Made by a program: the position numbers and the translations under genes. Under the pieces are notes generated by a model. It saw only the letters and a list, made by a program, of their open reading frames with translations, was not told the origin of the DNA and ran no database searches. 64,000 nt of DNA from an uncultured bacterium (GTDB lineage Bacteria; Fidelibacterota; Marinisomatia; Marinisomatales; JACNKV01). This document shows, piece after piece, positions 40,250 to 54,672 of the stretch. Every line of letters begins with the position of its first letter. Position 1 is the stretch's first letter. Location: contig CAYLYH010000002.1 of the NCBI GenBank assembly GCA_964388155.1, positions 9,887 through 73,886 on the forward strand, read 5' to 3'.

Positions 40250-41305
40250 TTATTTAATCATTTTAGGGTTTATCACCACATGTTTTACCATTTTTCGATT
40301 CCATGTATAAACGATGTGGATCAAGTTATCTTCAGTTTGGATTATGGCAGGATATGAATATTCTTCTTCATCTGTTGTTTCCGGATTAGTCACTTTTTCC
40401 AGTTGAATGACTTCTTTCCAAGTTTTTCCATCTTTGGATACGGCTACAGATAATGGGACACGATCTCCCCAGTTTTTATTGGTGGGATTATAAACCAATA
40501 AATGCCTTCCGTCTTTTAATGTTAATCCATCAATACCGGAGTTAGGATTTGGAAGAGTGGTCGCTTTCATTTCACTCCAAGTGTAACCATTATCTTTTGA
40601 CCAAGATTCAGAAATAACTTCATTTTTGGTTCGATTTAATAATTGAATTGTTTTATTTGGATGAACCAAAATGGTGGGTTGAATTGCACCAAACTCAACA
40701 CCGTCATTCAAATCTCCGGAAGATTTCCATGTTTTTCCATTATCAATAGATCGCTCTATTTGAATTTTCCAACCATCGTGTTCGGTGCTTGTCCCGGATA
40801 ATATATCACCATTTGATAATTGGATTGGTTTGTTTTTTATAGGACCATAAATCCCGTCGGGCAATTGAATTGGGTTAGACCAGGTTAATCCATGATTCTT
40901 GGATGTAACAAACATTCCCCACCATTCTCTTGGGTTGGGACCTACTTTGTAAAACAGAGTTAAAGGTGAATCTTTGGGTTGGAATAAAACGGGGTTCCAG
41001 CATGGGAAACGTGATCCATCATCTTGAATGCCATTTACAACTTCGACGGGAGTTGACCAATTTTTATTACTTTTTCTCGATACCCAGATCCCTACATCTT
41101 TATTTTTTTCTCTGGTACCACCAAACCATGCTGCGATTAGATTGTTTCCAGATGATACAATAGTAGATGCATGGCATTCCGGCGTAAGAGCATCTTCCAT
41201 TTCATAAATAAATTCTTGTGATACAATTAATCGGTTTGTTACTTCTTTATTACTACAGGATGATAAAAAGAAAATACCGAATAAAACACTTATGATGATT
41301 TTCAT
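40250..41305 (-). CDS. BNR/Asp-box sialidase-like beta-propeller lipoprotein (BNR_2)
   Basis: Asp-boxes SKNHGLTW, SIDNGKTW, SKDNGYTW, SKDGKTW. CHASTI, NPNSGID, YSYPAI. ATG 41305 overlaps the upstream TGA. Lipobox LSSC. Confidence 0.85.
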   Translation of the reverse strand: MKIIISVLFGIFFLSSCSNKEVTNRLIVSQEFIYEMEDALTPECHASTIVSSGNNLIAAWFGGTREKNKDVGIWVSRKSNKNWSTPVEVVNGIQDDGSRFPCWNPVLFQPKDSPLTLFYKVGPNPREWWGMFVTSKNHGLTWSNPIQLPDGIYGPIKNKPIQLSNGDILSGTSTEHDGWKIQIERSIDNGKTWKSSGDLNDGVEFGAIQPTILVHPNKTIQLLNRTKNEVISESWSKDNGYTWSEMKATTLPNPNSGIDGLTLKDGRHLLVYNPTNKNWGDRVPLSVAVSKDGKTWKEVIQLEKVTNPETTDEEEYSYPAIIQTEDNLIHIVYTWNRKMVKHVVINPKMIK

Positions 41306-44300
41306 TTGACTTTTCCTTCTGTTATTTCCTCGATGCAATCCAGCATTTCATTTCTGAATTTGACCATATTTAATTCGTTGCTCACCAAATCGAAGTTTTC
41401 GCGTGATACACCTAATTTCATGGCTTGATATCCCGGGTCAACCAAATCAATTAAACCGGATTCTAATAATTGATTAATTTTTTCTTGTAATCCGCTATTC
41501 AAATTTTGGTTTTCAGCAGCGATATTTTTTAGGGCAGAAAGAATTCGATAATCTTCAATACCTTCTCTCACTGCTTCCCAACGTCGGCTGGTAACCGGTT
41601 TTGTCCTGCCGGGATATACAAGGTTATATTCAAACTTGATACGTCCCCATGGATTTTCGCTATTCGCATTGTAGCACCAATATCCAATTCCCGATGCACC
41701 GGAGCGAAGTGCCATCAATGCAGCAGTGCGAAATTCGTACATCAAATTGATATTCTTTATATTGGGTCCGATTGGCCTAGATGAAGTATAAGTACAATTA
41801 TATGACCATAAATGATCTCCGACATTTTGCATTACATCCATTTCCGGGGAATCTTCAGAAAGCCAATCAAAGGGCGGAACCCAAACATCAATAACGGTTC
41901 CCATCGCGTTGAACATTGGCAACTCACCACCACCGTCTTGATAGAGCATAATATCAGGATGATTTTCATGAACTATTTCACCAAATTGCACTAATTTATT
42001 AACGGCATTCCAACCGTGACCGCCCGGCTCATCGATGGGGTAAATAGCAAATTGATTAGTATCGTATCCTGAATTTTTCAGATGCCTTTTCAAAGATTTC
42101 ATATACTTTGAAAGATCTTTTTTGTATTTGGCAGAACCGAATTCTCCCTTAATGGCAGGGAATCCACCAATCAGTAAAAACACATTGTGCTCTTTAAATT
42201 GATTCGTGATTTTATCCAGTTCGGAAAAATCAAAATTTTTAATCTTATCATATCGGTTATAAGTAATTTTACCGTGTGGAATCCGAAATACATTGTTTCC
42301 ATGAGCAAGCAAATCACTTATTTCAGGTCCTATAGAAGGAGACCATGTACATAACCTGAAGTCTTCCGGAGGGCTCATGGTAAAGAGAAAAACCTCCATC
42401 ATAATCTCTACATGCGTTTCCGGTGGTGAAGCTGCCTGCGGAGCTGAAGATGCATTGACCACACCATCACCGTTCAGAGCCTGTAATATAAGATCGATTT
42501 TATATTTACCTGGAGAATTTTCGGTCACGATGTCTAACCATACTTCCCGGGCAGTAAGAGAGGGAATCGTTACAATATTTGATTCATCCAATTCCGGCAT
42601 TGCATCCCAAGATTCTTCTCCGATGGATGTGATCGTATTCACGGACCGTAATAAAGTAACAGAAATCCCATCTTTTGTATTTTCGGTATGCACGCGTACA
42701 TTCAATAATTGATCGGTAATATTAAACAACATAAGCGATACAGGTTCATGTTCATTCAAAACGGTTCGACGGTTTATTTCCACAGGATTAACAACCCTTT
42801 CCGGCAATTGCAGATGAACATCTTTACTCTGCCAGTGAGTCCCCTCAAAAGCAATCAAACTTGTTCCGTCCCCAAGTTGAGTAGCTTTTTCACATACTGT
42901 ACTAATTTGAAACGCACGTTTAGCCTTCCGGTTAAGAGATGATGTTTGTTCAAATATTTTCTGATGAGCTGATGCTGAATTACCCGGGACACTATTTTGG
43001 AGAATCTGTATTTTGTCAAATTGTGACTGAAGCAACAGAGCTTTATGCCGCAAGGCGTTTGCGGTAAGCGGAATGTTTTTTTCGCATTCATCGGCCGTTG
43101 AAGCTAGTATGCCAATGGCTTGCTGAATTAACGACCTATCGTTATGAAAGGGTATAACCGCAATTTCTTTTGAATCTGAAAATAGGATTTTTTCATTTCC
43201 ATCGATCAACTCCCATGTAAAGCTATAATCACCGGGCTGTGCGATTTCAATTGGAAGAAGAAGTTGTCCCTTTTTTCCAATGATAGTTGATGTTGCTGTA
43301 TATTGCGTCCCGTTAGGACCTATACAAATTCCGTTGGCAGATAGTGACGTTGTAGTCGGATATGGATTTATAACATTAAAAATAACCGGTTCCCCAACAA
43401 AAAGTCTATCCCACTCTAGATTTTGCGGAACCATGCGTAATTGATTGGATTGTTTTAGTCCAAACCAAGAGCCTGTATTACGAATATCCCCACGGTAGGA
43501 ACTCCAATGTCTGATTGTTTTATTGGACGCAGGTGTTCCAAAGCAATAAGCCATTCCTGCTTCTCCACCTGTTAGGGCGAATTCCAGATCATCAACACTG
43601 CCTGAAATATTTCCAAAGGCAGGAGTATTATTAATGGAACGTGAAGGTAGTTGATGGTCAAAGATAATTTTTCCATCATTGCTGAAAGCTAAAATATGCC
43701 CACGCTGTGTTGATAAAATAAATTCCATTTCTCCGTCGTTATTAATATCAAGGATTGCGCCGGGCGCCAGCGTACGTCCCTGCATATCGATCTTCCATAT
43801 AACAGACCCTTTCTCATCAAATCGATAAATCACGCCTTTTTGTGTAATTGCAAAAATATCTGCACGCCCATTCAAGTTAAAATCACCAATAGAGATAGAC
43901 GATGCGATAGGGGAATTTGTCGGATAATCCCAAATCGGATTTCCATTCTTATCTAGACAATAAACAACACCATCAGCAGATGCGACGATAATATAGGTTT
44001 TACCATCCGATGCTGAAAACATGACTGGCGATGAGGTTGACCACGATGAAGATGCTTCTCCGATTTTATAATTCCACAATGTAGCTGTTTTATGATTCAT
44101 TGCTGTGACAACGCCGTCATTCGTAGAAAACACAATCTCCATTAAACCATCATTGTTAAGATCACCAACTGAAGGGCTCACCGGCGTTGCATCCAAAGTT
44201 GTATGATGATTCACGTTCCCTGTTAAAGCATCAAGAATCCATATAACTCCGCTTTGGTCTCCTTGGATAACTTCAATCTTTCCGTCATTGTTTAGATCAG

Positions 44301-44688
44301 AGAGAACATTCGCACACCACTCTACCCCGGCGTTTAGTTTTGTTTTCCACATTAGCTCTCCTGTACCGTTCAGACAGTGGAGATATCCACTTTTGTCCCC
44401 AACAAAAATAAGTACGGATTTGTTTTCTTGAATCAGTACTGAAGGATAAGTCATCAATCTTCCATCTGTTCTCCATTGCCATAATTCTTTTCCTTGTTTT
44501 CCTAACACGACTAACTCTTCATGACCGGCAATGATGGTTTCATCGTACCCATCATTATTAATGTCAGCAGCGATAGGAGCGCTTTCTAAAAAGACTTTTT
44601 GATTGGTTTCCCATTTAAGTGGAAGTTCAAGTTGTTGGGAAAAAGTTAATTGAAAAAAGGCTAGGGATAAAAAGATTTGGTTTTTCAT
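41302..44688 (-). CDS. PQQ-like/FG-GAP beta-propeller fused to a C-terminal GH123/DUF4091-like domain
   Basis: D-x-N-x-D-G Ca-binding repeats (DINNDG, DLNNDG, DFNLNG). C-terminal YPIDEPGG and VTSRRWEAVREGIEDYRIL, the latter a DUF4091-type motif. Confidence 0.7.
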   Translation of the reverse strand: MKNQIFLSLAFFQLTFSQQLELPLKWETNQKVFLESAPIAADINNDGYDETIIAGHEELVVLGKQGKELWQWRTDGRLMTYPSVLIQENKSVLIFVGDKSGYLHCLNGTGELMWKTKLNAGVEWCANVLSDLNNDGKIEVIQGDQSGVIWILDALTGNVNHHTTLDATPVSPSVGDLNNDGLMEIVFSTNDGVVTAMNHKTATLWNYKIGEASSSWSTSSPVMFSASDGKTYIIVASADGVVYCLDKNGNPIWDYPTNSPIASSISIGDFNLNGRADIFAITQKGVIYRFDEKGSVIWKIDMQGRTLAPGAILDINNDGEMEFILSTQRGHILAFSNDGKIIFDHQLPSRSINNTPAFGNISGSVDDLEFALTGGEAGMAYCFGTPASNKTIRHWSSYRGDIRNTGSWFGLKQSNQLRMVPQNLEWDRLFVGEPVIFNVINPYPTTTSLSANGICIGPNGTQYTATSTIIGKKGQLLLPIEIAQPGDYSFTWELIDGNEKILFSDSKEIAVIPFHNDRSLIQQAIGILASTADECEKNIPLTANALRHKALLLQSQFDKIQILQNSVPGNSASAHQKIFEQTSSLNRKAKRAFQISTVCEKATQLGDGTSLIAFEGTHWQSKDVHLQLPERVVNPVEINRRTVLNEHEPVSLMLFNITDQLLNVRVHTENTKDGISVTLLRSVNTITSIGEESWDAMPELDESNIVTIPSLTAREVWLDIVTENSPGKYKIDLILQALNGDGVVNASSAPQAASPPETHVEIMMEVFLFTMSPPEDFRLCTWSPSIGPEISDLLAHGNNVFRIPHGKITYNRYDKIKNFDFSELDKITNQFKEHNVFLLIGGFPAIKGEFGSAKYKKDLSKYMKSLKRHLKNSGYDTNQFAIYPIDEPGGHGWNAVNKLVQFGEIVHENHPDIMLYQDGGGELPMFNAMGTVIDVWVPPFDWLSEDSPEMDVMQNVGDHLWSYNCTYTSSRPIGPNIKNINLMYEFRTAALMALRSGASGIGYWCYNANSENPWGRIKFEYNLVYPGRTKPVTSRRWEAVREGIEDYRILSALKNIAAENQNLNSGLQEKINQLLESGLIDLVDPGYQAMKLGVSRENFDLVSNELNMVKFRNEMLDCIEEITEGKVK

Positions 44689-44755: not shown

Positions 44756-45916
44756 TTATCTGTTTCGTATCCACTCCTCGGTGAATTTAGCATGCATGAT
44801 CGTTTTGCCGATTGAATTTCGATGGGTGTAGGTCACATGAATCACACCATCCACTGTTTGGATCACAGAGGGATATCCATAAGATTCATTAGGTGACTTA
44901 CCGATATAGCGCTCCCATTTCCACGTTTGACCTTCATCATCGGATAAAGCCGCAGCAAAACTTCGACGATTATCCTCCGTATCGTTATAAAGCATCAACC
45001 AATGTCCGTTTTTAAGGACGATCACTTCAAGACTTGAACCCGGATTCAGGATATCAGTATCTTCAGCAAAAGACCATGTATCGCCATTGTCAGTTGAGAC
45101 ACTTTTCATTGCTCGATACGGCAGACTTCCGGAGTCACGTAAGTAGGCAACCAGCGTACCGTCTGACTTACGAACGATGGTTGGTTGTATCGGACCTAAC
45201 CCCACAATCGGAGAACTCGCACTCCAGGATTTGCCGACATCATCACTAATCGCCACTAAGGATACATTAAATCCGTCAGAGTACAGAGGGAGTAAAATAC
45301 GTCCGCTGGATAATACGGTGGGATGTATTCTAGTCATCCATCCTTTTTGGCGTTTTTCTTTATCTTCAGAAGCCTCAATAATCATCTGGCTGTACGGCAG
45401 AGCATATTCCGCCCACATTGGTTCATCCACATTTTTCTTGAAAGCGTGTTTAATGGCATTATGAAATCTTTCCCCAGGCGTCAGTACAATGATATCTTGC
45501 CAATTCCAAATTGGAGAACCGTCTTTTTGATAATCGGTTGACGTTTTATATCTGAGGATGGAGTTTTCCCAACCGTTGGCGCGTACTGCAATCCAAAACA
45601 ACCATAATTGCTCATTTTCGTCGATAAACAGAACCGGATTACAGTCCGGCAAATTAGGTGTGTCCGCCATAACAAACACCGAACTCCATACCGTTTCTCC
45701 TTTTTTTAATCTAGCTCCTTGAACCTGCACATCATTCGCAGTTCGTTCACCCGATCCATAGAACCAGCAAGCCAGCAAATCGCCGTTTGGCTGTTCAATA
45801 ATACTGCTGCCGTGCGCATGCTTTTCCTGAAAAGGGAATATTGGTTGTTGAACGATCTGTGACAATAGTGGCGTTATAGTTACTAATGCCATAAGAATTC
45901 GATATGATTTATTCAT
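44756..45916 (-). CDS. BNR/Asp-box sialidase-like beta-propeller protein (BNR_2)
   Basis: HAHGSSI, DCNPVLF, Asp-boxes SDDVGKSW, STDNGDTW, SDDEGQTW, and YGYPSV. Confidence 0.85.
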   Translation of the reverse strand: MNKSYRILMALVTITPLLSQIVQQPIFPFQEKHAHGSSIIEQPNGDLLACWFYGSGERTANDVQVQGARLKKGETVWSSVFVMADTPNLPDCNPVLFIDENEQLWLFWIAVRANGWENSILRYKTSTDYQKDGSPIWNWQDIIVLTPGERFHNAIKHAFKKNVDEPMWAEYALPYSQMIIEASEDKEKRQKGWMTRIHPTVLSSGRILLPLYSDGFNVSLVAISDDVGKSWSASSPIVGLGPIQPTIVRKSDGTLVAYLRDSGSLPYRAMKSVSTDNGDTWSFAEDTDILNPGSSLEVIVLKNGHWLMLYNDTEDNRRSFAAALSDDEGQTWKWERYIGKSPNESYGYPSVIQTVDGVIHVTYTHRNSIGKTIMHAKFTEEWIRNR

Positions 45917-45937: not shown

Positions 45938-48292
45938 TTATTCGGCAATAAACCCATGATAAAGCCCCATATAATACGGAAGTAAGAACACGGTTCCTGT
46001 TGATAGATTTTGTCCGTTACCGCCTGTGGTCAAATCCCAAGGATCGTGATTCCAATGGTTCACATGGCTTTCATCCACCGGAAATACTTTCCCATTTACA
46101 CGGTATCCTTTTCTTGAATTATCTTCGCGGTCAAATGTACGGTTCCAATGATGAAGTTTTTGCAGATCGATTCGATGATTATTGGAATGTCGCCAATCAA
46201 ATCTATCCAATGGAAAGCGAATCAATGTTTCAACAGACTCTTCCAGCCATTCTTCATGAGGTTCAAGGTCATATGTCCCCCAAGCATCGGTGAAATCTTG
46301 CCCGGAGGTGGCTGCCCTAAAGGCAAAATTAAAGAACGGATTCAATTCCGGTACTTCTAACATCCAATTCATATACATCGAAAACGAGTAGCGGGATTTT
46401 AATTCGGAGTCAGTCTCGTACTTGATTAAATGATAATAATTCATGAACGCCATTTCATCATCAGAATGGTTCCCTGTCCCTACACCGCGATTAAATTTCA
46501 TATCCGTCATATTTTGGGCGTAGCCATGTTCTTCGATTAGCATATCCGATATTTCACGATATCTTTTATCACCGGTCATGTGATAGGTAATCGCCAAATA
46601 GGATAACATACTTAGGGAATTTAATCCGCGCTCCACAAACCAGTTTTTGTCATGATTCAACTCATAGGGGTTAAACCGAGCCCAGCGGGTTGGTCTTCCG
46701 TCATGGTCAACCAGTTGAAAATCATGATCGATTAAATGATCCGTAAGCTTTTTCACATGAGACCGAACTCGCGATTTTTCTTCTTCGGTATCAGCAACCA
46801 GATCATAATACAGCCCGTAAAGAAAATAATGCCCGTCCAACTCATCGGAGCTGGTATCAGTTTTGTAATACCACTTCCCTGTTTTGTTTTTTGGCCATCT
46901 ATTTTCATAAACTTTCCATAGCTTATCATTGTTTTTTTTATTTCGGATATCGTCCTCAACCCGACCGATGTTAGGGTCATGACCGCTGGTGGGTAAGATG
47001 GTTCTGGCTACAAATCCCGGTGGCGGTGATATCAGCGCATCCTGTGTCACATCACCAAGAAATTTCAATGCGTCAAATGCTTTCTTTGCCCGTGCTTTTG
47101 CTTTAGGATCTTTTGTAGCTGCATAGGCAAAACATTCTCCTGCGCCGTACATCCCCGTCCATAATCCGTCATTATCACTATCATGTTGAATCCATTCAGA
47201 TTTGTCCCCGGAGATAGGAATTGTTACATCCAATACGTATTCGTACGGTGTACGACGGTGATAACGGTCTATTTCATCTTCATACCATTTTGCTTTTTCA
47301 GCCAGTGTCATTGTTTTATGGTATATGTTACCGATACCATCAGACGTGGCAATCCATGCACTCCCATCGGATGAAACGGCAATGTCAATCACTTCATCAT
47401 TTGGCAACCATCGTTTCCCCTGACGATATTCCCAGATTTCCCCGTCAAAATGGATGGCACCTTTATACGTACCAAACCATACATCACCATCAATACCTGC
47501 TGCCATTTTAGTAAAATCATTATAGGGTAAACCGTCTTTCCCCTCAAAGAGTGTCCAAACGTCGTCAAGAACTCCAGTTCCCTGCGGACTCGCAAACCAT
47601 AATCGATCTTTGGTATCAACCATCACACTACGACAATCATTAACTGCCCAGCTTCTGACACCGTCATCCGGTATAATTCGCACCCATTCCTTATTACTTT
47701 TACTGTGTTTGTAAATTCCGTTTTCAGTCGCAATAAAAATATTATTCTTTTTTGCTACGGCAATTTGACGGATCTCTTTGGCTGGGATGTCAAATCTCAT
47801 AACAGATTTTTTCCACCCGCTAGAAGTTGGTTTGATGGCATAAAGCTGTTCAACGCCGCTTAAGAGTATCCGTTTATCGAATGCCATATCACCACCCGTC
47901 ACAGGGACTTTCATTTTTTTCGGTAGAGTTAATTTATCGATGATTTTTCCTGTATGATCCAGAATGAAAATTTTACCACCCCGGGCTATTGAGGTGGATT
48001 CTGCTGAATAGACTGCAAGTTTATTCCCTTTGACAGCAAGATACCATATTTTCTTTCCTTCTAACTCCGGAACAGGAGTCCACTTATCTTCAGAAAACAC
48101 AGATAATCCGTTTTCGGTTCCGACATAGATGTTTCCATTTCTTGTGTTAGCTATGGTATTAATGTGGTTACTTGATAGCCCATCTTCAACTGTGTGAAAT
48201 GTCCGCAATTCCTGAGCAAACTCTTTAATGTGGATTTCTTCAGCTAATCCTGCAGTTATTGAAAGCAGTAATATTAATCCTATCTGGCGCAT
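45938..48292 (-). CDS. Uncharacterised secreted protein: Reg_prop-type beta-propeller plus helical C-terminal domain (DTSSDE family)
   Basis: DGLSSNHI / DGLPYND / WLPNDEV propeller repeats, then DSDNDGLWTGMY, KTDTSSDELDGH, FLLPYYMGLYHGFI. Paralog of 51380..53644. Confidence 0.7.
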   Translation of the reverse strand: MRQIGLILLLSITAGLAEEIHIKEFAQELRTFHTVEDGLSSNHINTIANTRNGNIYVGTENGLSVFSEDKWTPVPELEGKKIWYLAVKGNKLAVYSAESTSIARGGKIFILDHTGKIIDKLTLPKKMKVPVTGGDMAFDKRILLSGVEQLYAIKPTSSGWKKSVMRFDIPAKEIRQIAVAKKNNIFIATENGIYKHSKSNKEWVRIIPDDGVRSWAVNDCRSVMVDTKDRLWFASPQGTGVLDDVWTLFEGKDGLPYNDFTKMAAGIDGDVWFGTYKGAIHFDGEIWEYRQGKRWLPNDEVIDIAVSSDGSAWIATSDGIGNIYHKTMTLAEKAKWYEDEIDRYHRRTPYEYVLDVTIPISGDKSEWIQHDSDNDGLWTGMYGAGECFAYAATKDPKAKARAKKAFDALKFLGDVTQDALISPPPGFVARTILPTSGHDPNIGRVEDDIRNKKNNDKLWKVYENRWPKNKTGKWYYKTDTSSDELDGHYFLYGLYYDLVADTEEEKSRVRSHVKKLTDHLIDHDFQLVDHDGRPTRWARFNPYELNHDKNWFVERGLNSLSMLSYLAITYHMTGDKRYREISDMLIEEHGYAQNMTDMKFNRGVGTGNHSDDEMAFMNYYHLIKYETDSELKSRYSFSMYMNWMLEVPELNPFFNFAFRAATSGQDFTDAWGTYDLEPHEEWLEESVETLIRFPLDRFDWRHSNNHRIDLQKLHHWNRTFDREDNSRKGYRVNGKVFPVDESHVNHWNHDPWDLTTGGNGQNLSTGTVFLLPYYMGLYHGFIAE

Positions 48293-48339
48293 TTCTTCTC
48301 CTTGAGTGTTATTTTGTTCAAATTTAAGTCTTTCTTAAC

Positions 48340-51300
48340 CTAATCTTTAACCACGATTTTTATTGTTTGAATTGCAAATGGATTAAAATTTAATCGAATC
48401 TCATTTTGGCATATTGGTATATTAGTTATTGGTTCTTCCATTAAATTAGTCAATTCTGCAGATTGTATATCTACTCCAAATTTAAGACTTGCTTCTGCGT
48501 TTTTACCTTCGGATTCATACATCCTGACAACAATACTTTCATTTTCTTCAGATCTTTTTACCGCATCTACAATGATGTTATTCTTATCCGGCTTTACAAA
48601 AGCCCAGTTTGACGGAATGCTTCCATCATGTGGTTTTTCCAGATGATAACTTAACGGAACGTTCAATTCGTATCCGGCATGCACGACATTTCCGTCAATA
48701 TGATTCCCATAATGCGGATACAAGGCATAAGTAAATTTATGTTCTGCCCGATCGGCGGTTGGATCCGGCCATGACGAACTTCTAAGCAGGTTGATATCTA
48801 AAATATTTCCCTCGACAAAATGGCCATATTTACAATCGTTCAACAAAGCAACCCCATAATCCGGCTGAGACAGATCGATCCATTTATGAGCAGATATTTC
48901 AAACTGTCTCAGTTCCCAATCGGTATTATTATGGTTCGGGCGCTTAACATAGCCGTACTGAATTTCGGCTGTGGATTCATTCGTATGAATATCCACAGGA
49001 AAAGCAGTTCGAAGCATTTTTCCGTTTTCCTGCCAATCCACTTGAGTAATAAATTCAATCTTTCTGCTCCCTGCGGTTAAAATGATATCCTGATCAAGTA
49101 CGGATTCTCCAAATTTCTTAGTCTGCCGCATAATTGCTTTAGGTCCGTCAACAAATACTGATGATTCCACCAATTCAAACCGACCCATAACTCGGTGCCT
49201 ATAATCGGTGGAAAAATCCCAGGCATCGCCGTCATCATCACCATAAACTGTGAGGTCATTCCCGTTTTTTCCGGAATATAAAACTTCCCTGCCATACTTC
49301 TTATCAAAGATCGAAGCAATTTTACCATTTTGATGAAACACAACTTTTAAAATATCATTTTCAAGCAAGTTGTCTTTGGCAAGTATGTTCGGGATACTCC
49401 GCTCATCGCTGATGTTTTCAGTAACGGCATGCCCCATAGATGGGACTGAAACCAGCTGCCACTTCTCATTTATTTTCAGCCATTCCCGGCGATCCCATGA
49501 AAGTGTATTGTGCACCACAACTGGATTACGATACTCCTTTGTGTTAATTTTATCATTAACAGATGCTGTGGATAATACCGTTAAAATTTTGGTTTCATTC
49601 ATTAGTACTTTATAACGTTCCAGCGATTCATCATAGACACGTTTGATAGATGATCCGGGAATGATATCATGGAATTGATATAGCAACACCTCTTTCCAAA
49701 TTAGTTCGTATTTTTCCGCAGGATAATCAGACTTGGAAATGATTTGTGCAAGAGCCGATTTAAACTCCGCATCTCTAAGGGAAAATTCCATTTTTCGATT
49801 AAAACGTTTATTTCTTGCTTGAGTTGTGTATGTCCCCTGGTGAAACCCTAAATACAACTCTCCCACCCAAGTGTGATACAAATGAGCATTTCTTTCTAAA
49901 CGCTCAAAGAATTTTTCTACAAATTCCTGTTTTACCGGTGCCATCCCATTTAGGTTCTTTGATCGCTTCAACCTTTCTAAATGATCGGTTCCGGGTCCAC
50001 CACCACCGTCTCCGATCCCGAACAGCATTAAGAAATTATTTGATACATCTTTATCCTGATACTCACGTTCGCCTTTCAATATTGCTCTTGGAGCAGCCGG
50101 GCCGTTGTATGTCGCTTCGGGCGGCATATGCACTAATACTTTTGACCCGTCAATTCCCTGCCAATGAAATGTTTCATGCGGATATTTTACATATTTATCC
50201 CATGATAATTTGGTAGTAACAAAGTAGTCTATTCCGGATTTTTTCATAATTTGTGGTAAAGCTCCGGAATATCCAAATACATCCGGTAAAAATAGATTGG
50301 TCGGTACTTGTCCGAATTCGTCCTGGAAATATTTCTTTCCGTATAAAAATTGTCGCACCAATGACTCTCCGCTTGGAACATTTGTATCTGCCTCCACCCA
50401 CATTCCACCTAATATTTCCCACCGTTTGTCAGCCACCGCTTTTTTTATTCCAGAGTACAATTTCGGGTAGTGGATTTTCATCCATTGATAAAGCTGTGGT
50501 TGACTGGCGCCGAACAAATATTCTGGATATTCAGCCATCATAGCCAGCACGTGTGAAAAAGTTCGAGCTCCCTTTCTAACTGTTTCGCGAATGGGCCATA
50601 ACCATGCCAAATCTATATGGGCATGCCCTAAAGCGCTCACACGAAGCGGATAATCCCCATTTTCCTTGGATAGCTCTACTTGTAAATGTTGCTGGGCTCG
50701 ATCAACTGCCTCTTTGGTAAAATCAACCAGTTCAGCCATAGTCTTATGCATCGAATTGAGAATTTGTCTATAACGGGCAGAGTCTTGTGGTAAGTTTTGC
50801 CATAAATCATAGAGGACTTCGTAATCATAATATAATGCTTCGATATTCCTGTGATGTATCGCAATATAGGCTTCCTTCAATTCGCCACTGTTTTTCAAAT
50901 TCCCAAAGAGATCGTTATTCCCGACATCAGCCCAAATATCGATAGCATCACCTCCGGCTGCATTCGTTATAAACGGGACTACCTTTTTTACGGCTTTTCC
51001 TTCATAAGGATTTCCGAATTGAGTCGCAGTAGTTGTCAAACACAACTTAGGTATGCCGTTCCCATCTACCACATTGGCTTCTCCATTTAGGTCGATTACC
51101 AGTGATATGGTTTTCCCTTTTACAGATTTTGGGACCGTTCCGCAGAACCGCATCCAGGCACAGTCAAATAAATCTCCCCACCTATCCCCCTTTTGCAACT
51201 TTATTTTCTCTCCGGACATTCGCTCAAGATATGAAACCGGTTCTTTGGTTTTCCAGGCTGTCAAATCTAAGTCGACTACATGAGTAAATATATTCTCTTG

Positions 51301-51366
51301 GATTCGTCCAAGAATTTTATCCAGACGATCTAAAACAGGTTGCGTGGTTTGAAGATTCATCTTCAT
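48340..51366 (-). CDS. GH38 alpha-mannosidase (bacterial/cytosolic Man2C1-AMS1 type)
   Basis: Zn ligands LGHAHIDLAWLW, nucleophile FLPDVFGYS, GIGDGGGGP, ELYLGFHQGTYTTQ, QFHDIIPGSSI. No signal peptide. Confidence 0.93.
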   Translation of the reverse strand: MKMNLQTTQPVLDRLDKILGRIQENIFTHVVDLDLTAWKTKEPVSYLERMSGEKIKLQKGDRWGDLFDCAWMRFCGTVPKSVKGKTISLVIDLNGEANVVDGNGIPKLCLTTTATQFGNPYEGKAVKKVVPFITNAAGGDAIDIWADVGNNDLFGNLKNSGELKEAYIAIHHRNIEALYYDYEVLYDLWQNLPQDSARYRQILNSMHKTMAELVDFTKEAVDRAQQHLQVELSKENGDYPLRVSALGHAHIDLAWLWPIRETVRKGARTFSHVLAMMAEYPEYLFGASQPQLYQWMKIHYPKLYSGIKKAVADKRWEILGGMWVEADTNVPSGESLVRQFLYGKKYFQDEFGQVPTNLFLPDVFGYSGALPQIMKKSGIDYFVTTKLSWDKYVKYPHETFHWQGIDGSKVLVHMPPEATYNGPAAPRAILKGEREYQDKDVSNNFLMLFGIGDGGGGPGTDHLERLKRSKNLNGMAPVKQEFVEKFFERLERNAHLYHTWVGELYLGFHQGTYTTQARNKRFNRKMEFSLRDAEFKSALAQIISKSDYPAEKYELIWKEVLLYQFHDIIPGSSIKRVYDESLERYKVLMNETKILTVLSTASVNDKINTKEYRNPVVVHNTLSWDRREWLKINEKWQLVSVPSMGHAVTENISDERSIPNILAKDNLLENDILKVVFHQNGKIASIFDKKYGREVLYSGKNGNDLTVYGDDDGDAWDFSTDYRHRVMGRFELVESSVFVDGPKAIMRQTKKFGESVLDQDIILTAGSRKIEFITQVDWQENGKMLRTAFPVDIHTNESTAEIQYGYVKRPNHNNTDWELRQFEISAHKWIDLSQPDYGVALLNDCKYGHFVEGNILDINLLRSSSWPDPTADRAEHKFTYALYPHYGNHIDGNVVHAGYELNVPLSYHLEKPHDGSIPSNWAFVKPDKNNIIVDAVKRSEENESIVVRMYESEGKNAEASLKFGVDIQSAELTNLMEEPITNIPICQNEIRLNFNPFAIQTIKIVVKD

Positions 51367-51379
51367 AGGGCTTTCTAAT

Positions 51380-53644
51380 CTATTCTCCTATGTATCCATA
51401 GTACCGACCCATCCAATAAGGAAGTAGCCAAAATACGCCACTGCTTTCTACTTTGCCATAGTGTCCTTGATCAGCTATCCATGGATTATCATCCCAGCGA
51501 ACAACTCCTCGTTCAGATGGCGGTAGTAATCGTGCTGTCTGTATTTCTTCTATTTCAGGATAACGGGTAAATCTGACATCTTCACGTCCGGAATTATTCA
51601 CTCTCCAATGGATCAAATCCAGGGGAGCATCTTGTAAAAAATGAATAGATTGGTCAAGATTAGGATTTTCATCGGTACACATTCCATAGATAAAATTAAA
51701 AAATGAACTTTGATCATTTTCGACGGCATGATACCATCGATCCAGACTTTCCCGGTAGATATTTTTTAAGTACGGATCATCTTCTTTCAGCAGCAGGCAA
51801 GGATAAGCCAAAGCTAACAATTCATCATCTATGTGCGTTCGCCAAGACGGATTCAGCGATTTAGCTGTCTTTGTATTTTCTGCATAACCGTGTTCATGAA
51901 TCAATTTAAGGTATTCATCCTGATAACGTTCTTCACCTGAGACATAATATGCCAGTTTTAAGAATGAGAGAATTTCAACGGAGTTAATACCGCGGTCTGC
52001 CTTCCAATCCGGGTCATCATTCAATTTCTCCGGAGACCAAACAGCCCACCGAGTATGTGTCCCGTCAATATCTTTTAGTACAAATCCACTATCAATGATA
52101 TAGTCGACAATTTTGCGGATGTGCTCACGAATATCCGTTTTTTCTTCATCGTTTGCTACTAAATCATAATATAGAAAATAGCCGTACATATGCCCGGTAA
52201 TTTCATCACTGCTGGTATCGCCTTTCCACCACCATTTACCGTTTTGGGATTTACGCCACAATGTTGCCCTGGTCCGCTTTGCCCTTGGATCTCCGACTCT
52301 TTCCGAAGCCCAATCCTGATCGGTTATCCGTCTGTTTTTTTCTTCGATGTTTTTCCACGTAGACGGAATGACCGACCGGGCTACAAATCCATTCGTACTG
52401 GTGACAGTTTGCAGAAATTTCATTGCTGCATAGGCTTTATCGGCATTTTCCTTCGCTTCGGGGTCACCGGTATCCGCATAACGATAGGATTCCATTGCCA
52501 AATACATCCCGGTATATTGTCCGTCATTGTCATTTTCTAACGGCTGCCAAGATGATAAGTCACCCGGCTCAGACAGAAGACATTTTTCTACCAAATAAGG
52601 TTCACGAACATGCCTGGAGTAACATTTATCAAGAATCTCATCGGACTTTTCTTTTAGCGTCATCAAATTCTGCTTTATGATGCTAATCCCCTTGTCGGTA
52701 GCAATTAAGGCATTTCCCTCATCATCAAATATTATATCATTTACTTTATCGTCAAGCAACCAGCGTTTACTACGTCGCACAGACCATGATCCATTATAAA
52801 ACCGCGCTACACCTTTATCTGTCCCTACCCATATTTTTCCATCAGGACTACTTTCCACCACATTCACTGAAGCCGATGGTAATCCTTTTCTAGGCGTGTA
52901 ATGGTTGATTCTTTTACCTTCAGAGTGAACCGTGATGCCGCCCAATCCGCCAATCCAAAATTTATTATTTCCAACATACGCCATATCACGAATATCTGCG
53001 CTGAGAAGTTCTTTCTTATCCTGAATTAGAGCGTAACTTGCTCCATTATAGCGATATAAACCTATCCCGGTTGCAATCCATAATTTATTGTTATATTGTT
53101 TTACCGAGCGGATATTTTTAGAAATCGGAAGTTCGGTAAACGACCATTCTTCATTAGAACATTTCCACTGACCGTCGGGTCCATAAGCATGAATGACCCC
53201 GTTAAGTTCCGCAATTGCAGCGATTGGGGAATGAATATTCTCAACTTTGGTTAACTCTTTTTGGCTTAGTTCGTAAATTCCATTCCATGACCCAATTAGC
53301 AGTGTTCCTTTTGAAGATATAAAAAGATCAAAAACCGGACCTTTATTAGCAGACTCAAATAGGTTTGTCCAAATATTTTTCTCGAAATCATGCTGGTAAA
53401 AACCGGTTTTTGTCCCGCAAAAATATTGATTATTGAATTCCATTATAGTTAATACACATTCACCGTCATTTGAAATAGTATGTGGTTCATGCCATTCTTG
53501 TGTAAAAGGAATATCATAAACAGGAACATTCTCGGAAACTTCCTTAGTGCTGCAGCCTAGCAGAGTAAGCATTGAAGCAAGTAACATAAAAACAGTTATT
53601 TTACGTATTATCTCGACACCACGCTGAAAAAGAATAATAATCAT
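51380..53644 (-). CDS. Uncharacterised lipoprotein: beta-propeller plus helical C-terminal domain (DTSSDE family)
   Basis: Lipobox LLGC. KGLPSASV / WLLDDKV repeats. ENDNDGQYTGMY, KGDTSSDEITGH, WLLPYWMGRYYGYI. Exact start uncertain. Confidence 0.7.
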   Translation of the reverse strand: MIIILFQRGVEIIRKITVFMLLASMLTLLGCSTKEVSENVPVYDIPFTQEWHEPHTISNDGECVLTIMEFNNQYFCGTKTGFYQHDFEKNIWTNLFESANKGPVFDLFISSKGTLLIGSWNGIYELSQKELTKVENIHSPIAAIAELNGVIHAYGPDGQWKCSNEEWSFTELPISKNIRSVKQYNNKLWIATGIGLYRYNGASYALIQDKKELLSADIRDMAYVGNNKFWIGGLGGITVHSEGKRINHYTPRKGLPSASVNVVESSPDGKIWVGTDKGVARFYNGSWSVRRSKRWLLDDKVNDIIFDDEGNALIATDKGISIIKQNLMTLKEKSDEILDKCYSRHVREPYLVEKCLLSEPGDLSSWQPLENDNDGQYTGMYLAMESYRYADTGDPEAKENADKAYAAMKFLQTVTSTNGFVARSVIPSTWKNIEEKNRRITDQDWASERVGDPRAKRTRATLWRKSQNGKWWWKGDTSSDEITGHMYGYFLYYDLVANDEEKTDIREHIRKIVDYIIDSGFVLKDIDGTHTRWAVWSPEKLNDDPDWKADRGINSVEILSFLKLAYYVSGEERYQDEYLKLIHEHGYAENTKTAKSLNPSWRTHIDDELLALAYPCLLLKEDDPYLKNIYRESLDRWYHAVENDQSSFFNFIYGMCTDENPNLDQSIHFLQDAPLDLIHWRVNNSGREDVRFTRYPEIEEIQTARLLPPSERGVVRWDDNPWIADQGHYGKVESSGVFWLLPYWMGRYYGYIGE

Positions 53645-53664
53645 TGCTTTAATTTAACTAAACT

Positions 53665-54672
53665 ATGGAAATTATAAGATATAATATTTCACTTTCTACT
53701 AAAAATAACGGCTTTCTAATTAAAAGCAGAAATAAAGATAACAATTTGAGCACCACTTTCCATCTCCCGTCCGGGGTGTGGCCTGTCATGCTGACTCCAT
53801 TCGATCAGAATAAAAAGATCGACTGGGACGTATTGCCTTCTTTAGTCGAACACTATATTAAATCCGGAGCAGATGGACTCTTTGCTGTCTGCGGCTCAAG
53901 TGAAATGTTTGAACTATCATGGTCCGAACGTCTAATGCTGACAGAACACATTATCAAGATTGTCGATAAGAGATTACCGGTGATTGTTAGCGGCATTTTT
54001 GGGGATAATATTATTCAGCAATCTGAACACGTACATGAAATGTACGGAGTTGGTGCGAATGCAATCATATTACTGGTTAATCAGCTTGCAGGGGAAAAAG
54101 ATTCTGAGGATATCTGGATACAAAATGCCGAAGAATTATTATCCAAAACAGATGATATACCGTTAGGATTGTATGAATGCCCTTCTCCGTATCATCGACT
54201 GATTTCACCTGAATTACTAAAATGGACAAGTAGTACAAACCGATTTTATTGGATAAAAGAAACTTCTGAAAATATCGACAGTCTCAGAAATAAAATTCAT
54301 ACTGTTTCCGATTCTCGATTTCACATCTTTAATGCCGATTCCAGAATTCAGCTTGATGCTCTCCTTACCGGCGCCAAGGGTTATTGTGGAATAGCAACAA
54401 ATTATTACTCTGATCTTATAAATTGGTTAAATAACAATCACGCATCTAAACAAAAACTGGCAAAAGGTATCCAACAGTTTATGAATAAAACGCACGCAGT
54501 TATTAATCATAAATACTTATCTTCTGCAAAATATTATGCGAAAATATCCGGCGTTCCGATCAGAACAACATGCCGCTCCACGAATGAAATACTCACACAA
54601 TCAGATATTGAGCAACTAGATAATTTGAAAAACCAACACGAACATTGGCAACAAATATTAAACTTAAACTAA
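53665..54672 (+). CDS. Dihydrodipicolinate-synthase/N-acetylneuraminate-lyase (class I aldolase) family protein
   Basis: GVWPVMLTPF, DGLFAVCGSSEMFELS, Tyr in LYECPSPY, Schiff-base Lys in WIKETS. True start may be TTG 53746. Confidence 0.85.
   Translation: MEIIRYNISLSTKNNGFLIKSRNKDNNLSTTFHLPSGVWPVMLTPFDQNKKIDWDVLPSLVEHYIKSGADGLFAVCGSSEMFELSWSERLMLTEHIIKIVDKRLPVIVSGIFGDNIIQQSEHVHEMYGVGANAIILLVNQLAGEKDSEDIWIQNAEELLSKTDDIPLGLYECPSPYHRLISPELLKWTSSTNRFYWIKETSENIDSLRNKIHTVSDSRFHIFNADSRIQLDALLTGAKGYCGIATNYYSDLINWLNNNHASKQKLAKGIQQFMNKTHAVINHKYLSSAKYYAKISGVPIRTTCRSTNEILTQSDIEQLDNLKNQHEHWQQILNLN

What the first reader, a model, noticed from the sequence alone, without database searches (positions are those of the whole stretch)
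45938..53644. Paralogous DTSSDE proteins bracket GH38: candidate new (alpha/alpha)-barrel glycosidase family
Seen: two diverged paralogs flank the alpha-mannosidase and conserve acidic motifs in order: D-N-D-G-x-(W/Y)-T-G-M-Y, D-T-S-S-D-E-x-x-G-H, T-R-W-A, R-G-x-N-S, D-D-E, (D/N)-P-W and L-L-P-Y-(Y/W)-M-G-x-Y-x-G. One has a signal peptide and the other a lipobox. Inference: conserved carboxylates in a helical domain fit an (alpha/alpha)6 glycosidase, phosphorylase or epimerase fold. They may work upstream of cytoplasmic GH38 on manno-configured linkages.
Basis: partly seen in the sequence, partly recalled or inferred. Interest (0 to 1): 0.68.

Follow-up and report, generated by a model that had tools for sequence, protein, structure and literature searches.

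The report
Unclassified propeller-plus-barrel sugar enzymes
Two exported proteins flanking an alpha-mannosidase gene belong to a very large, unnamed and unstudied family that joins a sensor-type beta-propeller to a six-hairpin helical barrel; it is most likely a new glycoside hydrolase family, and its steadiest partner is a sialidase-like enzyme.

Summary
Genes 45938-48292(-) (A, 784 aa, Sec signal) and 51380-53644(-) (B, 754 aa, lipobox-like LLGC) are homologous (32% identity, E 8e-98). They share all seven listed motifs and flank a GH38 gene inside an eight-gene minus-strand operon.

Only the C-terminal ~430-460 residues are the new domain. That domain has no match in Pfam, NCBIfam or PDB sequences.

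AlphaFold models of both (pLDDT 86.6 and 83.7) are (alpha/alpha)6 barrels. Their remote neighbours are GH76, AGE-type epimerases, GH146 and GH9 (TM 0.3-0.5). hhalign gives only 12-31% probability to GH127/146 and AGE.

The family is large: 1,635 clusters at 50% identity, at least 595 species and many phyla. It is always exported and is patchy within its phylum (17/301 genomes). A and B belong to separate old subfamilies.

Family genes lie in operons with, or are fused to, GH5, GH20, GH29/28/30, GH2-like, GH43-like and BNR_2 enzymes. The A type is tightly coupled to the downstream sialidase-fold gene. GH38 linkage recurs in two phyla but is not obligatory.

Most likely this is a new glycoside hydrolase family. 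Its substrate is unknown.

The parts
45938..48292 (-). Paralog A (784 aa), A-type subfamily: Sec signal, Reg_prop propeller and C-terminal (alpha/alpha)6 domain
   Evidence: ORF; Pfam Reg_prop only; orthologs at 60-89% identity across phyla
48242..48292 (-). A signal peptide MRQIGLILLLSITAGLA
   Evidence: Read from the translation; all 15 aligned homologs (9 A-type, 6 B-type) also start with hydrophobic leaders
47318..48241 (-). A propeller domain (about residues 18-325), Reg_prop repeats
   Evidence: PF07494 8e-15; PDB 4a2l/3v9f hybrid two-component sensor propellers
45941..47317 (-). A C-terminal domain (residues 326-784, P0121): predicted (alpha/alpha)6 barrel of an unclassified family
   Evidence: AF2 pLDDT 86.6, pTM 0.90; Foldseek GH76/CE/GH146/GH9, TM 0.29-0.51; no Pfam or PDB sequence hit
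47165..47176 (-). A DNDG motif (D373 N374 D375 G376) at the N-cap of barrel helix 1; 98-100% conserved in the family
   Evidence: helix boundaries
46841..46858 (-). A DTSSDE motif (479-484) at the N-cap of barrel helix 3; S481 and E484 invariant, D483 in 118/119; best candidates for catalytic carboxylates
   Evidence: helix boundaries
46163..46174 (-). A R707-x-D709 motif in the long loop before the last helix; R in 118/119, D in 117/119
51380..53644 (-). Paralog B (754 aa), B-type subfamily: lipoprotein-type leader, Reg_prop propeller and C-terminal (alpha/alpha)6 domain
   Evidence: ORF; orthologs at 60-67% identity in Planctomycetota, KSB1, Armatimonadota and Hydrogenedentota
53552..53644 (-). 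B leader ending in LLG-C31 (lipobox-like)
   Evidence: Read from the translation
51383..52669 (-). B C-terminal domain (residues 326-754, P0122): predicted (alpha/alpha)6 barrel
   Evidence: AF2 pLDDT 83.7, pTM 0.86; Foldseek finds the same neighbours as for A
52202..52219 (-). B DTSSDE motif (476-481)
52520..52531 (-). B DNDG motif (372-375)
48340..51366 (-). GH38 alpha-mannosidase (1008 aa, no signal peptide) between B and A, in the same operon
   Evidence: Four GH38 Pfam domains, E 1e-87 to 3e-18; gaps of 13 and 47 bp
44756..45916 (-). BNR_2 sialidase-fold protein (BNR2a), 21 bp downstream of A; conserved partner of the A type
   Evidence: Pfam; synteny in L005-L009 and L021/22/24; identical phyletic pattern in 41 relatives; fusion protein P0385; reverse look-up L140
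36199..44688 (-). Rest of the same-strand gene string: GH123-like + FG-GAP/PQQ propeller (41302-44688), second BNR_2 (40250-41338), clan GH-A-like TIM barrel (39028-40245), PA14 protein (36199-39021)
   Evidence: Pfam; gaps of 67, -37, 4 and 6 bp

Best explanation
A and B are exported two-domain carbohydrate-active enzymes of a large, undescribed family.

Domain roles:
- An N-terminal Reg_prop beta-propeller is the same module that hybrid two-component sensors use to bind oligosaccharides. It most likely holds the glycan chain (inferred).
- A C-terminal (alpha/alpha)6 barrel is the catalytic domain (fold predicted; catalysis inferred).

Active site. The near-invariant polar residues sit at the N-terminal caps of every second barrel helix, or in the long loops that precede those helices. 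Those helices are parallel to each other, so the residues lie on one face of the barrel, where six-hairpin glycosidases have their active site. I propose hydrolysis of a glycosidic bond, with D483/E484 (SSDE) as the most likely acid/base or nucleophile pair. D373/N374/D375, R430, K477, H488, R707/D709, E741 and Y773 would shape a conserved -1 subsite.

Pathway. The A type acts together with the adjacent GH33-like sialidase-fold enzyme on the same extracellular or periplasmic glycan. One enzyme would expose the linkage that the other cleaves. B is a probable lipoprotein of another subfamily and would take a different linkage. In this genome the fragments are then imported and finished by cytoplasmic GH38 and the other enzymes of the operon.

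Substrate. It is not known. An alpha-manno-configured linkage in a glycan that also carries an acidic sugar is my leading guess.

Odds:
- Carbohydrate-active enzyme with a six-hairpin catalytic domain: about 0.8.
- Hydrolase rather than lyase or epimerase: about 0.55 overall.
- Manno-configured substrate: about 0.25.
For: Fold:
- Two independent AF2 models are confident: pLDDT 86.6/pTM 0.90 and 83.7/0.86.
- Each has 12 alternating helices, with short odd-to-even and long even-to-odd connections.
- Foldseek finds only six-hairpin enzymes (GH76, CE/AGE, GH146, GH9, GH88, PL27) for both models.

Conservation:
- 25 residues are at least 95% conserved over 119 representatives that share only 32-62% identity. 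These include D48 N49 D50, S156 S157 D158 E159, H163, R382, D384 and Y448. E416 (95%) and D286 (91%) are just below.
- The C-domain is far more conserved than the propeller: 60-78% against 33-44% between phyla.

Export: leaders are present in all 17 aligned members (A, B and 15 homologs).

Operon context:
- GH5 overlapping the stop codon, in L001, L014 and L031.
- A GH29-GH28-GH30-family operon, L085.
- A GH2-like gene upstream, L088.
- GH20 plus sulfatase, L002.
- A GH3-family-BNR_2 operon with a divergent TonB receptor and SSF transporter, L008 and L140.

Fusion proteins: GH20+propeller+domain (P0255), BNR_2+propeller+domain (P0385), family+GH43-like (P0169).

Partner:
- A BNR2a ortholog lies directly downstream in 8 loci of two phyla.
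- It is present in exactly the same 4 of 41 relatives as the A type.
- BNR2a keeps the sialidase Tyr nucleophile and two of the three Arg.

Manno link:
- GH38 is adjacent in this genome, as a remnant in sister species G001, and divergently transcribed in L021/L022/L024.
- A BNR2a homolog lies next to GH99.
- The best Foldseek E-values are to GH76 alpha-1,6-mannanases.
Against: - No activity or ligand data exist for any member.
- Structural similarity to every solved enzyme is only at fold level (TM 0.29-0.51, E 1e-4 to 1e-2). No residue-level superposition could be made, so the catalytic assignment is topological inference.
- The conserved set also contains His, Tyr, Arg and Lys, as in toroid-type lyases.
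- About half of the annotated neighbourhoods examined (L086, L087, L090, L091, L093) contain no CAZyme gene.
- GH38 is absent from two of the four relatives that have A plus BNR2a.
- The aldolase and kinase genes of the divergent operon co-occur with A only within this genus.
- The C-terminal 70-residue loop that carries R707/D709/E741 is modelled with low confidence (pLDDT 35-75).
Confidence: 0.55

Rival explanations
1. The barrel is a polysaccharide lyase or an unsaturated-uronide hydrolase (PL5/8/15/17/27- or GH88/105-like chemistry). It would act on a uronic- or ulosonic-acid-containing glycan, with Tyr773/His488 as base/acid and Arg/Lys neutralising the carboxylate.
For: - Y448, H163, R105, R382 and K152 are 96-99% conserved.
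- PL27 (5noa) and GH88 (4q88, 1vd5) are among the Foldseek hits for A.
- The partner BNR2a has a carboxylate-binding Arg pair.
- GH28 and an oligogalacturonate-lyase-like gene occur in two neighbourhoods.
Against: - Lyase and GH88 hits rank below GH76, CE, GH146 and GH9, and are absent from the top 50 for B.
- Invariant adjacent carboxylates (D158/E159, D48/D50, D384, E416) are more typical of hydrolases.
- Most linked enzymes (GH5, GH20, GH29, GH30, GH38, GH3, GH2) act on neutral or amino sugars.
Confidence: 0.12
2. The barrel is an AGE/cellobiose-2-epimerase-like isomerase or epimerase. It would act on free or reducing-end sugars outside the cytoplasm.
For: The highest TM-scores are to cellobiose 2-epimerases, glucose 2-epimerase, mannose isomerase and YihS (TM 0.38-0.52). 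One His is near-invariant (H163).
Against: - hhalign to an AGE profile gives only 15% over 66 columns of a generic hairpin. AGE against GH127 gives 93%.
- There is no PF07221 hit.
- The AGE mechanism needs two catalytic His, and only one is conserved.
- The proteins are exported and carry a glycan-binding-type propeller. Known AGE enzymes are cytoplasmic (established knowledge).
Confidence: 0.07
3. The proteins are non-catalytic. They would be surface or periplasmic glycan-binding or sensing proteins, as the database names 'regulator' and 'ligand-binding sensor domain-containing protein' suggest.
For: - The propeller is homologous to hybrid two-component sensor domains.
- Many family genes stand alone, away from CAZyme genes.
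- B is a probable lipoprotein, like surface glycan-binding proteins.
Against: - No transmembrane, histidine-kinase, receiver or DNA-binding domain is detected in any member scanned.
- The barrel, not the propeller, is the slowly evolving part.
- It carries some 20 near-invariant polar residues, including several carboxylates. That is unusual for a mere binding module.
- Fusions to GH20, BNR_2 and GH43-like catalytic modules exist.
Confidence: 0.1
4. The family acts on bacterial cell-envelope debris rather than on eukaryotic glycans. The A type would be an alpha-heptosidase or similar enzyme that works with a Kdo-hydrolase-like BNR_2 on LPS inner core. Alternatively it would be a muropeptide- or peptidoglycan-active enzyme.
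For: - In this window the divergent operon encodes a DHDPS-type aldolase, SSF transporters, an HldA/E-like kinase-HAD fusion and an HldD-like epimerase.
- In L008 and L140 the A-BNR2a pair lies near AmiA-like amidase and GH3/beta-lactamase-domain genes.
- Heptose is manno-configured, and the fold neighbours act on manno sugars.
- The term 'heptosidase' does not occur in the searched literature.
Against: - The kinase-HAD and aldolase genes co-occur with A only in G000 and G001. They are missing from G009 and G037, which keep A plus BNR2a.
- No such genes are near the Hydrogenedentota or other loci.
- Nothing ties the B type to these genes.
Confidence: 0.08

Closest known systems
GH76 endo-alpha-1,6-mannanases (e.g. 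BT3792 4c1s, Salegentibacter GH76A 6shd, Bacillus circulans Aman6 4d4a)
   Same: Both are (alpha/alpha)6 barrels. GH76 gives the best Foldseek E-values for both paralogs (1.7e-4 and 4.1e-4). GH76 enzymes are secreted or surface enzymes that feed alpha-mannosidases in mannan and N-glycan loci.
   Different: TM is only 0.29-0.37, with rmsd 12-13 A. The GH76 Pfam model does not match. This domain is about 100 residues larger, with two long loop insertions and an N-terminal propeller. Equivalence to the catalytic Asp-Asp pair was not shown.
AGE superfamily (cellobiose 2-epimerase 4z4l/7d5g, glucose 2-epimerase 8h1l, mannose isomerase 5x32, YihS 2zbl)
   Same: These give the highest TM-scores (0.38-0.52). 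They share the repeated hairpin with a 'TGD..Y' helix motif.
   Different: hhalign probability is 15%. There is no PF07221 hit. Only one conserved His is present. AGE enzymes are cytoplasmic single-domain proteins, whereas this family is exported and fused to a propeller.
GH127/GH146 beta-L-arabinofuranosidases (8qf8, 6yqh, 5opj)
   Same: Both have a six-hairpin catalytic domain. GH127 gives the only sequence-level signal: a sub-threshold Pfam PF07944 hit (15.6 bits; 4 of 37 members). hhalign probability is 31%, E 5e-4, against 0.1-0.2% for reversed controls.
   Different: The hit is below the curated cut-off (24.9 bits). The GH127 against GH146-like control gives 100%. No Cys is among the residues conserved in at least 85% of the family, so the Cys nucleophile and Zn-Cys3 site are absent.
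BT1020 of the Bacteroides thetaiotaomicron RG-II locus (GH143 sialidase-like propeller fused to a GH142 (alpha/alpha)6 barrel; recalled from Ndeh et al. 2017, not retrieved here)
   Same: The logic is the same: a sialidase-fold enzyme for an ulosonic acid is coupled, in one chain, to a six-hairpin glycosidase that removes the neighbouring sugar. Here the same coupling appears as a conserved gene pair and as the fusion P0385.
   Different: No sequence or fold match to GH142/GH143 was seen in the top Foldseek hits. The propeller fused here is Reg_prop type. This resemblance is a lead from memory, not a test.
Periplasmic sensor domains of Bacteroides hybrid two-component systems (4a2l, 3v9f, 3ott)
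   Same: The N-terminal ~300 residues match the Reg_prop propeller repeats (profile E 1e-48).
   Different: There is one propeller instead of two. Y_Y_Y, transmembrane, kinase, receiver and AraC domains are absent, and the C-terminus is a barrel enzyme-like domain.
PgSGL4 'Group 4' of the beta-1,2-glucanase (SGL) clan (PMC12102758)
   Same: The described architecture is an N-terminal beta-propeller plus an (alpha/alpha)6 barrel. It is secreted and no substrate was found.
   Different: Group 4 is a small group (20 homologs) related to GH144, with a six-bladed propeller and C-terminal CBMs. GH144/GH162 structures are not among the Foldseek hits here, and no GH144 Pfam match exists. A direct comparison was not possible.

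Membership tests
Six-hairpin (alpha/alpha)6 glycosidase-like fold | Twelve alternating antiparallel helices forming a barrel, with long loops on the catalytic face | tested here: met
   AF2 models of A and B have helices at 5-20, 50-68, 71-89, 157-174, 178-197, 224-248, 251-272, 284-300, 304-324, 327-337, 357-367 and 442-454. Odd-to-even links are short and even-to-odd loops are long. All Foldseek hits are six-hairpin proteins. This is a prediction, not an experimental structure.
Six-hairpin (alpha/alpha)6 glycosidase-like fold | Conserved catalytic carboxylates lining a pocket on that face | tested here: inconclusive
   Near-invariant D48/D50, D158/E159, D384 and E416 map to N-caps of odd helices or to the loops before them. 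No coordinates were available to measure distances or a pocket.
GH76 | Match to the family profile (PF03663) | tested here: not met
   No hit at E<=1 for 37 members. The six-frame search of the own genome found nothing.
GH76 | Close structural superposition including the catalytic Asp-Asp pair | tested here: inconclusive
   Best E-values are 1.7e-4 and 4.1e-4, but TM is 0.29-0.37 and rmsd 12-13 A. No residue-level alignment was returned.
GH127/GH146 | Match to PF07944 above the curated cut-off | tested here: not met
   15.6 bits against a cut-off of 24.9; only 4 of 37 members give any hit. hhalign gives 31% and 12.5%, against 100% for the control.
GH127/GH146 | Cys nucleophile and Zn-binding Cys3-Glu site | tested here: not met
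   No Cys is among the positions conserved in at least 85% of 119 representatives.
AGE / cellobiose 2-epimerase superfamily | Match to PF07221 or a profile-profile relation | tested here: not met
   No Pfam hit. hhalign gives 15% over 66 columns, while AGE against GH127 gives 93%.
AGE / cellobiose 2-epimerase superfamily | Pair of catalytic His residues | tested here: inconclusive
   Only H163 is near-invariant (115/119). H264 and H284 are 75% and 62% conserved. No superposition was available.
Hybrid two-component system sensors | Reg_prop propeller repeats | tested here: met
   PF07494 in 34 of 37 members; PDB 4a2l, E 1e-48 with the profile.
Hybrid two-component system sensors | Y_Y_Y, HisKA/HATPase, receiver and AraC output domains | tested here: not met
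   None is detected in A, B or any of 37 members. The database names 'regulator' and 'streptogramin lyase' derive from the propeller alone.
GH33 sialidases (for the partner BNR2a, 44756-45916) | Arg triad, Tyr nucleophile with Glu, Asp acid/base, Asp-boxes | tested here: inconclusive
   In the phmmer alignment to 1eur, the equivalents of R276, R342 and Y370 are kept. The E260 position reads Q, and the N-terminal RIP Arg is not aligned. BNR_2 Pfam E is 2.5e-48.

The most novel reading that the evidence does not exclude
The propeller-plus-barrel proteins would found a new CAZy glycoside hydrolase family, one of the largest still unrecognised: 1,635 clusters at 50% identity, at least 595 species and about ten phyla.

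The A subfamily would be the obligate partner of a non-canonical GH33-like enzyme. Together they would dismantle a widespread acidic, manno-configured glycan for which no glycosidases are known. One candidate is the heptose-Kdo inner core of LPS in bacterial necromass, which would make A the first 'heptosidase'. Another is a functional replacement for GH76/GH125 in phyla that lack them.
Probability: 0.1. Interest if true: 0.85.

Novelty: new variant of a known kind. Interest (0 to 1): 0.6.

Why it matters
- If activity is shown, these proteins define a new glycoside hydrolase (or lyase) family. It is present in thousands of uncultured Planctomycetota, Verrucomicrobiota, Acidobacteriota, Hydrogenedentota, KSB1, Calditrichota, Armatimonadota and Marinimicrobia. 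These groups are held responsible for much polysaccharide turnover in soil, sediment and the deep ocean.
- Today the proteins are annotated as 'hypothetical', 'regulator' or 'streptogramin lyase'. They are therefore invisible to CAZyme-based predictions of glycan degradation.
- The pairing with a sialidase-fold enzyme gives a concrete two-enzyme system to test.
- A sensor-type propeller reused as the substrate-binding module of an enzyme would be an unusual domain combination.

Tried and rejected
- **Sequence routes to a known family.** All of these failed for the C-domain: Pfam at E<=1 on 37 members, NCBIfam, and phmmer and profile hmmsearch against PDB.
- **GH76 profile comparison.** I tried to fetch GH76 sequences for a profile-profile test. 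PF03663 is absent from 21 relatives, from 301 genomes of the phylum and from 15 family-bearing genomes of other phyla. The comparison could not be made.
- **Unbiased clustering of neighbours.** In 82 loci the high-GC genomes produced mostly antisense ORFs of the family gene itself. Real recurrent neighbours were few: BNR2a 8 loci, SSF 8, TonB receptor 5, GH3-like 4, GH84-like 4, GH5-like 3. The rest were kinases and ABC components that look incidental.
- **Ca2+-binding Dx[DN]xDG loop (PMC3123361).** The motif reads DSDNDG in A, but the first Asp is present in only 49 of 119 representatives and B has Glu. I dropped this as a family feature.
- **LPS-core salvage reading.** Phyletic profiles weakened it. 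The kinase-HAD and aldolase genes are only in G000 and G001.
- **Literature.** Searches for Reg_prop/six-hairpin combinations, PGAP names, heptosidase and new GH families found no description of this family.
- **Recent tandem duplication.** Rejected. A and B lie in separate deep clades, and B's nearest relatives (66% identity) are in other phyla.

Full report
**What is there**

The minus strand carries a tight string of eight genes:

| Gene | Coordinates | Gap to next gene below |
|---|---|---|
| B | 51380-53644 | 13 bp |
| GH38 | 48340-51366 | 47 bp |
| A | 45938-48292 | 21 bp |
| BNR_2 protein (BNR2a) | 44756-45916 | 67 bp |
| GH123-like/FG-GAP protein | 41302-44688 | -37 bp (overlap) |
| second BNR_2 | 40250-41338 | 4 bp |
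| clan-GH-A-like TIM barrel | 39028-40245 | 6 bp |
| PA14 protein | 36199-39021 | - |

The string is divergent from an operon on the plus strand. That operon encodes an aldolase, an SSF transporter, a kinase/HAD fusion, an HldD-like epimerase, a GH3 enzyme and a second SSF transporter.

A and B align end to end (32% identity, E 8e-98). A has a Sec-type leader and B a leader ending LLG-C31.

**Two domains, not one**

Residues 1-325 of both proteins are a Reg_prop beta-propeller. Pfam PF07494 matches. The closest solved proteins are the periplasmic sensor domains of Bacteroides hybrid two-component systems (4a2l, 3v9f; E 1e-48 with a family profile). None of the signalling domains of those sensors is present.

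The conserved acidic motifs all lie in the C-terminal 430-460 residues. That part has no match in any of the following:
- Pfam at E<=1 for 37 members, apart from a sub-threshold GH127 hit of 15.6 bits against a cut-off of 24.9;
- NCBIfam;
- PDB sequences, even with a profile HMM.

**Fold**

I predicted the C-domains of A and B separately, from alignments of 37 and 38 homologs.

| Model | pLDDT | pTM |
|---|---|---|
| A C-domain | 86.6 | 0.90 |
| B C-domain | 83.7 | 0.86 |

Both models are all-helical, with twelve alternating helices. Foldseek against the PDB returned only six-hairpin proteins for both:
- GH76 alpha-1,6-mannanases gave the best E-values (1.7e-4 and 4.1e-4; TM 0.29-0.37).
- Cellobiose/glucose 2-epimerases and mannose isomerases gave the best TM-scores (0.38-0.52).
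- GH146, GH9, GH88 and PL27 followed.

This is fold-level similarity only.

I made profile-profile tests with sequences fetched from 15 family-bearing genomes.

| Comparison | hhalign probability |
|---|---|
| Family vs GH127 | 31% |
| Family vs GH146-like | 12.5% |
| Family vs AGE | 15% |
| GH127 vs GH146-like (control) | 100% |
| AGE vs GH127 / GH146-like (control) | 93% / 85% |
| Reversed profiles (control) | 0.1-0.7% |

The domain is thus further from these families than they are from each other. GH76 sequences could not be obtained. The family is absent from 301 genomes of this phylum and from 15 other family-bearing genomes.

**Conserved residues and where they sit**

Over 119 representatives sharing 32-62% identity, these residues are conserved in at least 95% (C-domain numbering; add 325 for A): D48, N49, D50, G51, T54, R105, K152, S156, S157, D158, E159, H163, T210, Y266, R382, D384 and Y448. 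E416 is at 95% and D286 at 91%. No Cys is among the conserved positions.

In both models the motifs cap the N-termini of helices 1, 3, 5, 7, 9 and 11, or lie in the long loops before them. The odd-to-even connections are 2-3 residues long. Consecutive helices in an alpha/alpha barrel are antiparallel, so all these positions lie on one face. That is the arrangement of six-hairpin glycosidase active sites. This is inference from topology. I had no coordinates to measure a pocket.

The DSDNDG of A resembles a Dx[DN]xDG Ca2+ loop (PMC3123361), but the first Asp is not conserved in the family.

**Size and spread of the family**

- Phyla: Marinimicrobia/Fidelibacterota, KSB1, Calditrichota, Hydrogenedentota, Planctomycetota, Verrucomicrobiota, Acidobacteriota and Armatimonadota.
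- Names given by sources are 'hypothetical', 'regulator', 'ligand-binding sensor domain-containing protein' and 'streptogramin lyase'. All of these derive from the propeller.
- All 17 aligned members (A, B and 15 homologs) have leaders. The barrel is 60-78% identical between phyla, against 33-44% for the propeller.
- Within the window's own phylum the family is patchy: 17 of 301 genomes and 10 of 104 genera. It is usually a single A-type copy. Only this genome and one other hold an A plus a B-like copy.
- In a tree, A and B fall in separate clades (27 representatives with support 0.956; 13 with support 0.999). Most other representatives are equidistant from both. The pair is not a local duplication.

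**Context**

About half of the annotated neighbourhoods link the gene to glycosidases:
- a GH5-like gene overlapping the stop codon, in L001, L014 and L031;
- a GH29-GH28-GH30-family operon, L085;
- a 943-aa GH2-like gene upstream, L088;
- GH20 and a sulfatase, L002;
- GH31/YdjC nearby, L092.

The other half (L086, L087, L090, L091, L093) sit among unrelated genes.

Natural fusions join the propeller-barrel unit to three kinds of enzyme: a GH20 hexosaminidase (P0255, 1,650 aa), a BNR_2 sialidase-fold domain (P0385) and a GH43-like domain (P0169).

**The partner**

The strongest link is between the A type and BNR2a.
- Orthologs of BNR2a (57-68% identity) lie directly downstream of the A-type gene in five Marinimicrobia loci and three Hydrogenedentota loci.
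- Among 41 relatives, the A type and BNR2a occur in exactly the same four genomes. By hypergeometric chance this is about 1 in 100,000, uncorrected for phylogeny.
- The BNR_2 domain fused in P0385 aligns over its full length with BNR2a (E 3e-19).
- A reverse look-up from a BNR2a homolog found a 787-aa Reg_prop protein immediately upstream, with a divergent TonB receptor and SSF transporter (L140).
- BNR2a keeps the equivalents of the sialidase nucleophile Tyr and two of the three Arg. It lacks the RIP Arg and has Gln at the Glu260 position of the Micromonospora enzyme.

**GH38**

The bracket arrangement is specific to this genome. The link to GH38 nevertheless recurs:
- the sister species has BNR2a-A followed by a GH38 remnant;
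- three Hydrogenedentota loci have a divergent GH38 next to A-BNR2a.

Two relatives with A plus BNR2a have no GH38. One BNR2a homolog lies beside a GH99 endo-alpha-mannosidase-family gene. This gives modest support to a manno-configured substrate.

The heptose/Kdo-type genes of the divergent operon follow A only within this genus. That weakens an LPS-core reading.

**Verdict**

These are exported enzymes of an unclassified six-hairpin family fused to a sensor-type propeller. They are most likely glycoside hydrolases. The A type works with a GH33-like enzyme. The substrate and the chemistry (hydrolase, lyase or epimerase) remain open.

I found no description of the family in the searched literature. 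The nearest published analogue in architecture is PgSGL4 'Group 4' (PMC12102758), whose relation to this family I could not test.

Noticed in passing
window 44756-45916 (-): The BNR_2 protein downstream of A keeps the sialidase Tyr nucleophile and two Arg. It has Gln at the Glu260-equivalent position and no RIP Arg. It belongs to a family of more than 4,800 clusters annotated exo-alpha-sialidase, 63-70% identical across phyla.
   Followed up: partly
L008:12547-19451 and L140:8142-15137: In Marinimicrobia relatives the A-BNR2a pair lies next to an AmiA-like (PF07313) amidase, NagZ-like GH3 genes and a GH3/beta-lactamase-domain fusion. This looks like muropeptide catabolism. A TonB receptor and an SSF transporter are divergently transcribed.
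   Followed up: no
G001 contig C35 (sister species): The syntenic locus has BNR2a-A, then only a 216-aa GH38 remnant (residues 805-1004), no B copy, and an aldolase ortholog with an in-frame TAA. The locus is decaying or differently assembled in the sister species. The BNR2a ortholog of G009 has an in-frame TGA.
   Followed up: no
window 53644-53665: The annotated starts of B and of the divergent DHDPS-type aldolase are only 20 bp apart. Either the promoters lie inside coding sequence or one start is further downstream.
   Followed up: no
window 41302-41338: The GH123-like gene and the second BNR_2 gene overlap by 37 nt as called from the longest ORFs. The downstream start may be later.
   Followed up: no
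L141:4741-8173: In a Sedimentisphaerales contig a BNR2a homolog sits in a row with a second BNR_2 gene, a GH99-family gene and a GFO/IDH/MocA oxidoreductase. No propeller-barrel gene lies within 7 kb.
   Followed up: no
L086:10273-11346 and L087:10300-11361: B-type genes in two Armatimonadota-like genomes are followed by a conserved 353-357-aa protein (77% identical) with no Pfam match.
   Followed up: no
L088:1-7927: An A-type gene is preceded by a 1,014-aa PQQ/ACSF4-type propeller protein and a 943-aa GH2-like protein. This is the same kind of set as the GH123-like/FG-GAP and GH-A-like genes of the window, which hints at a recurring larger module.
   Followed up: no
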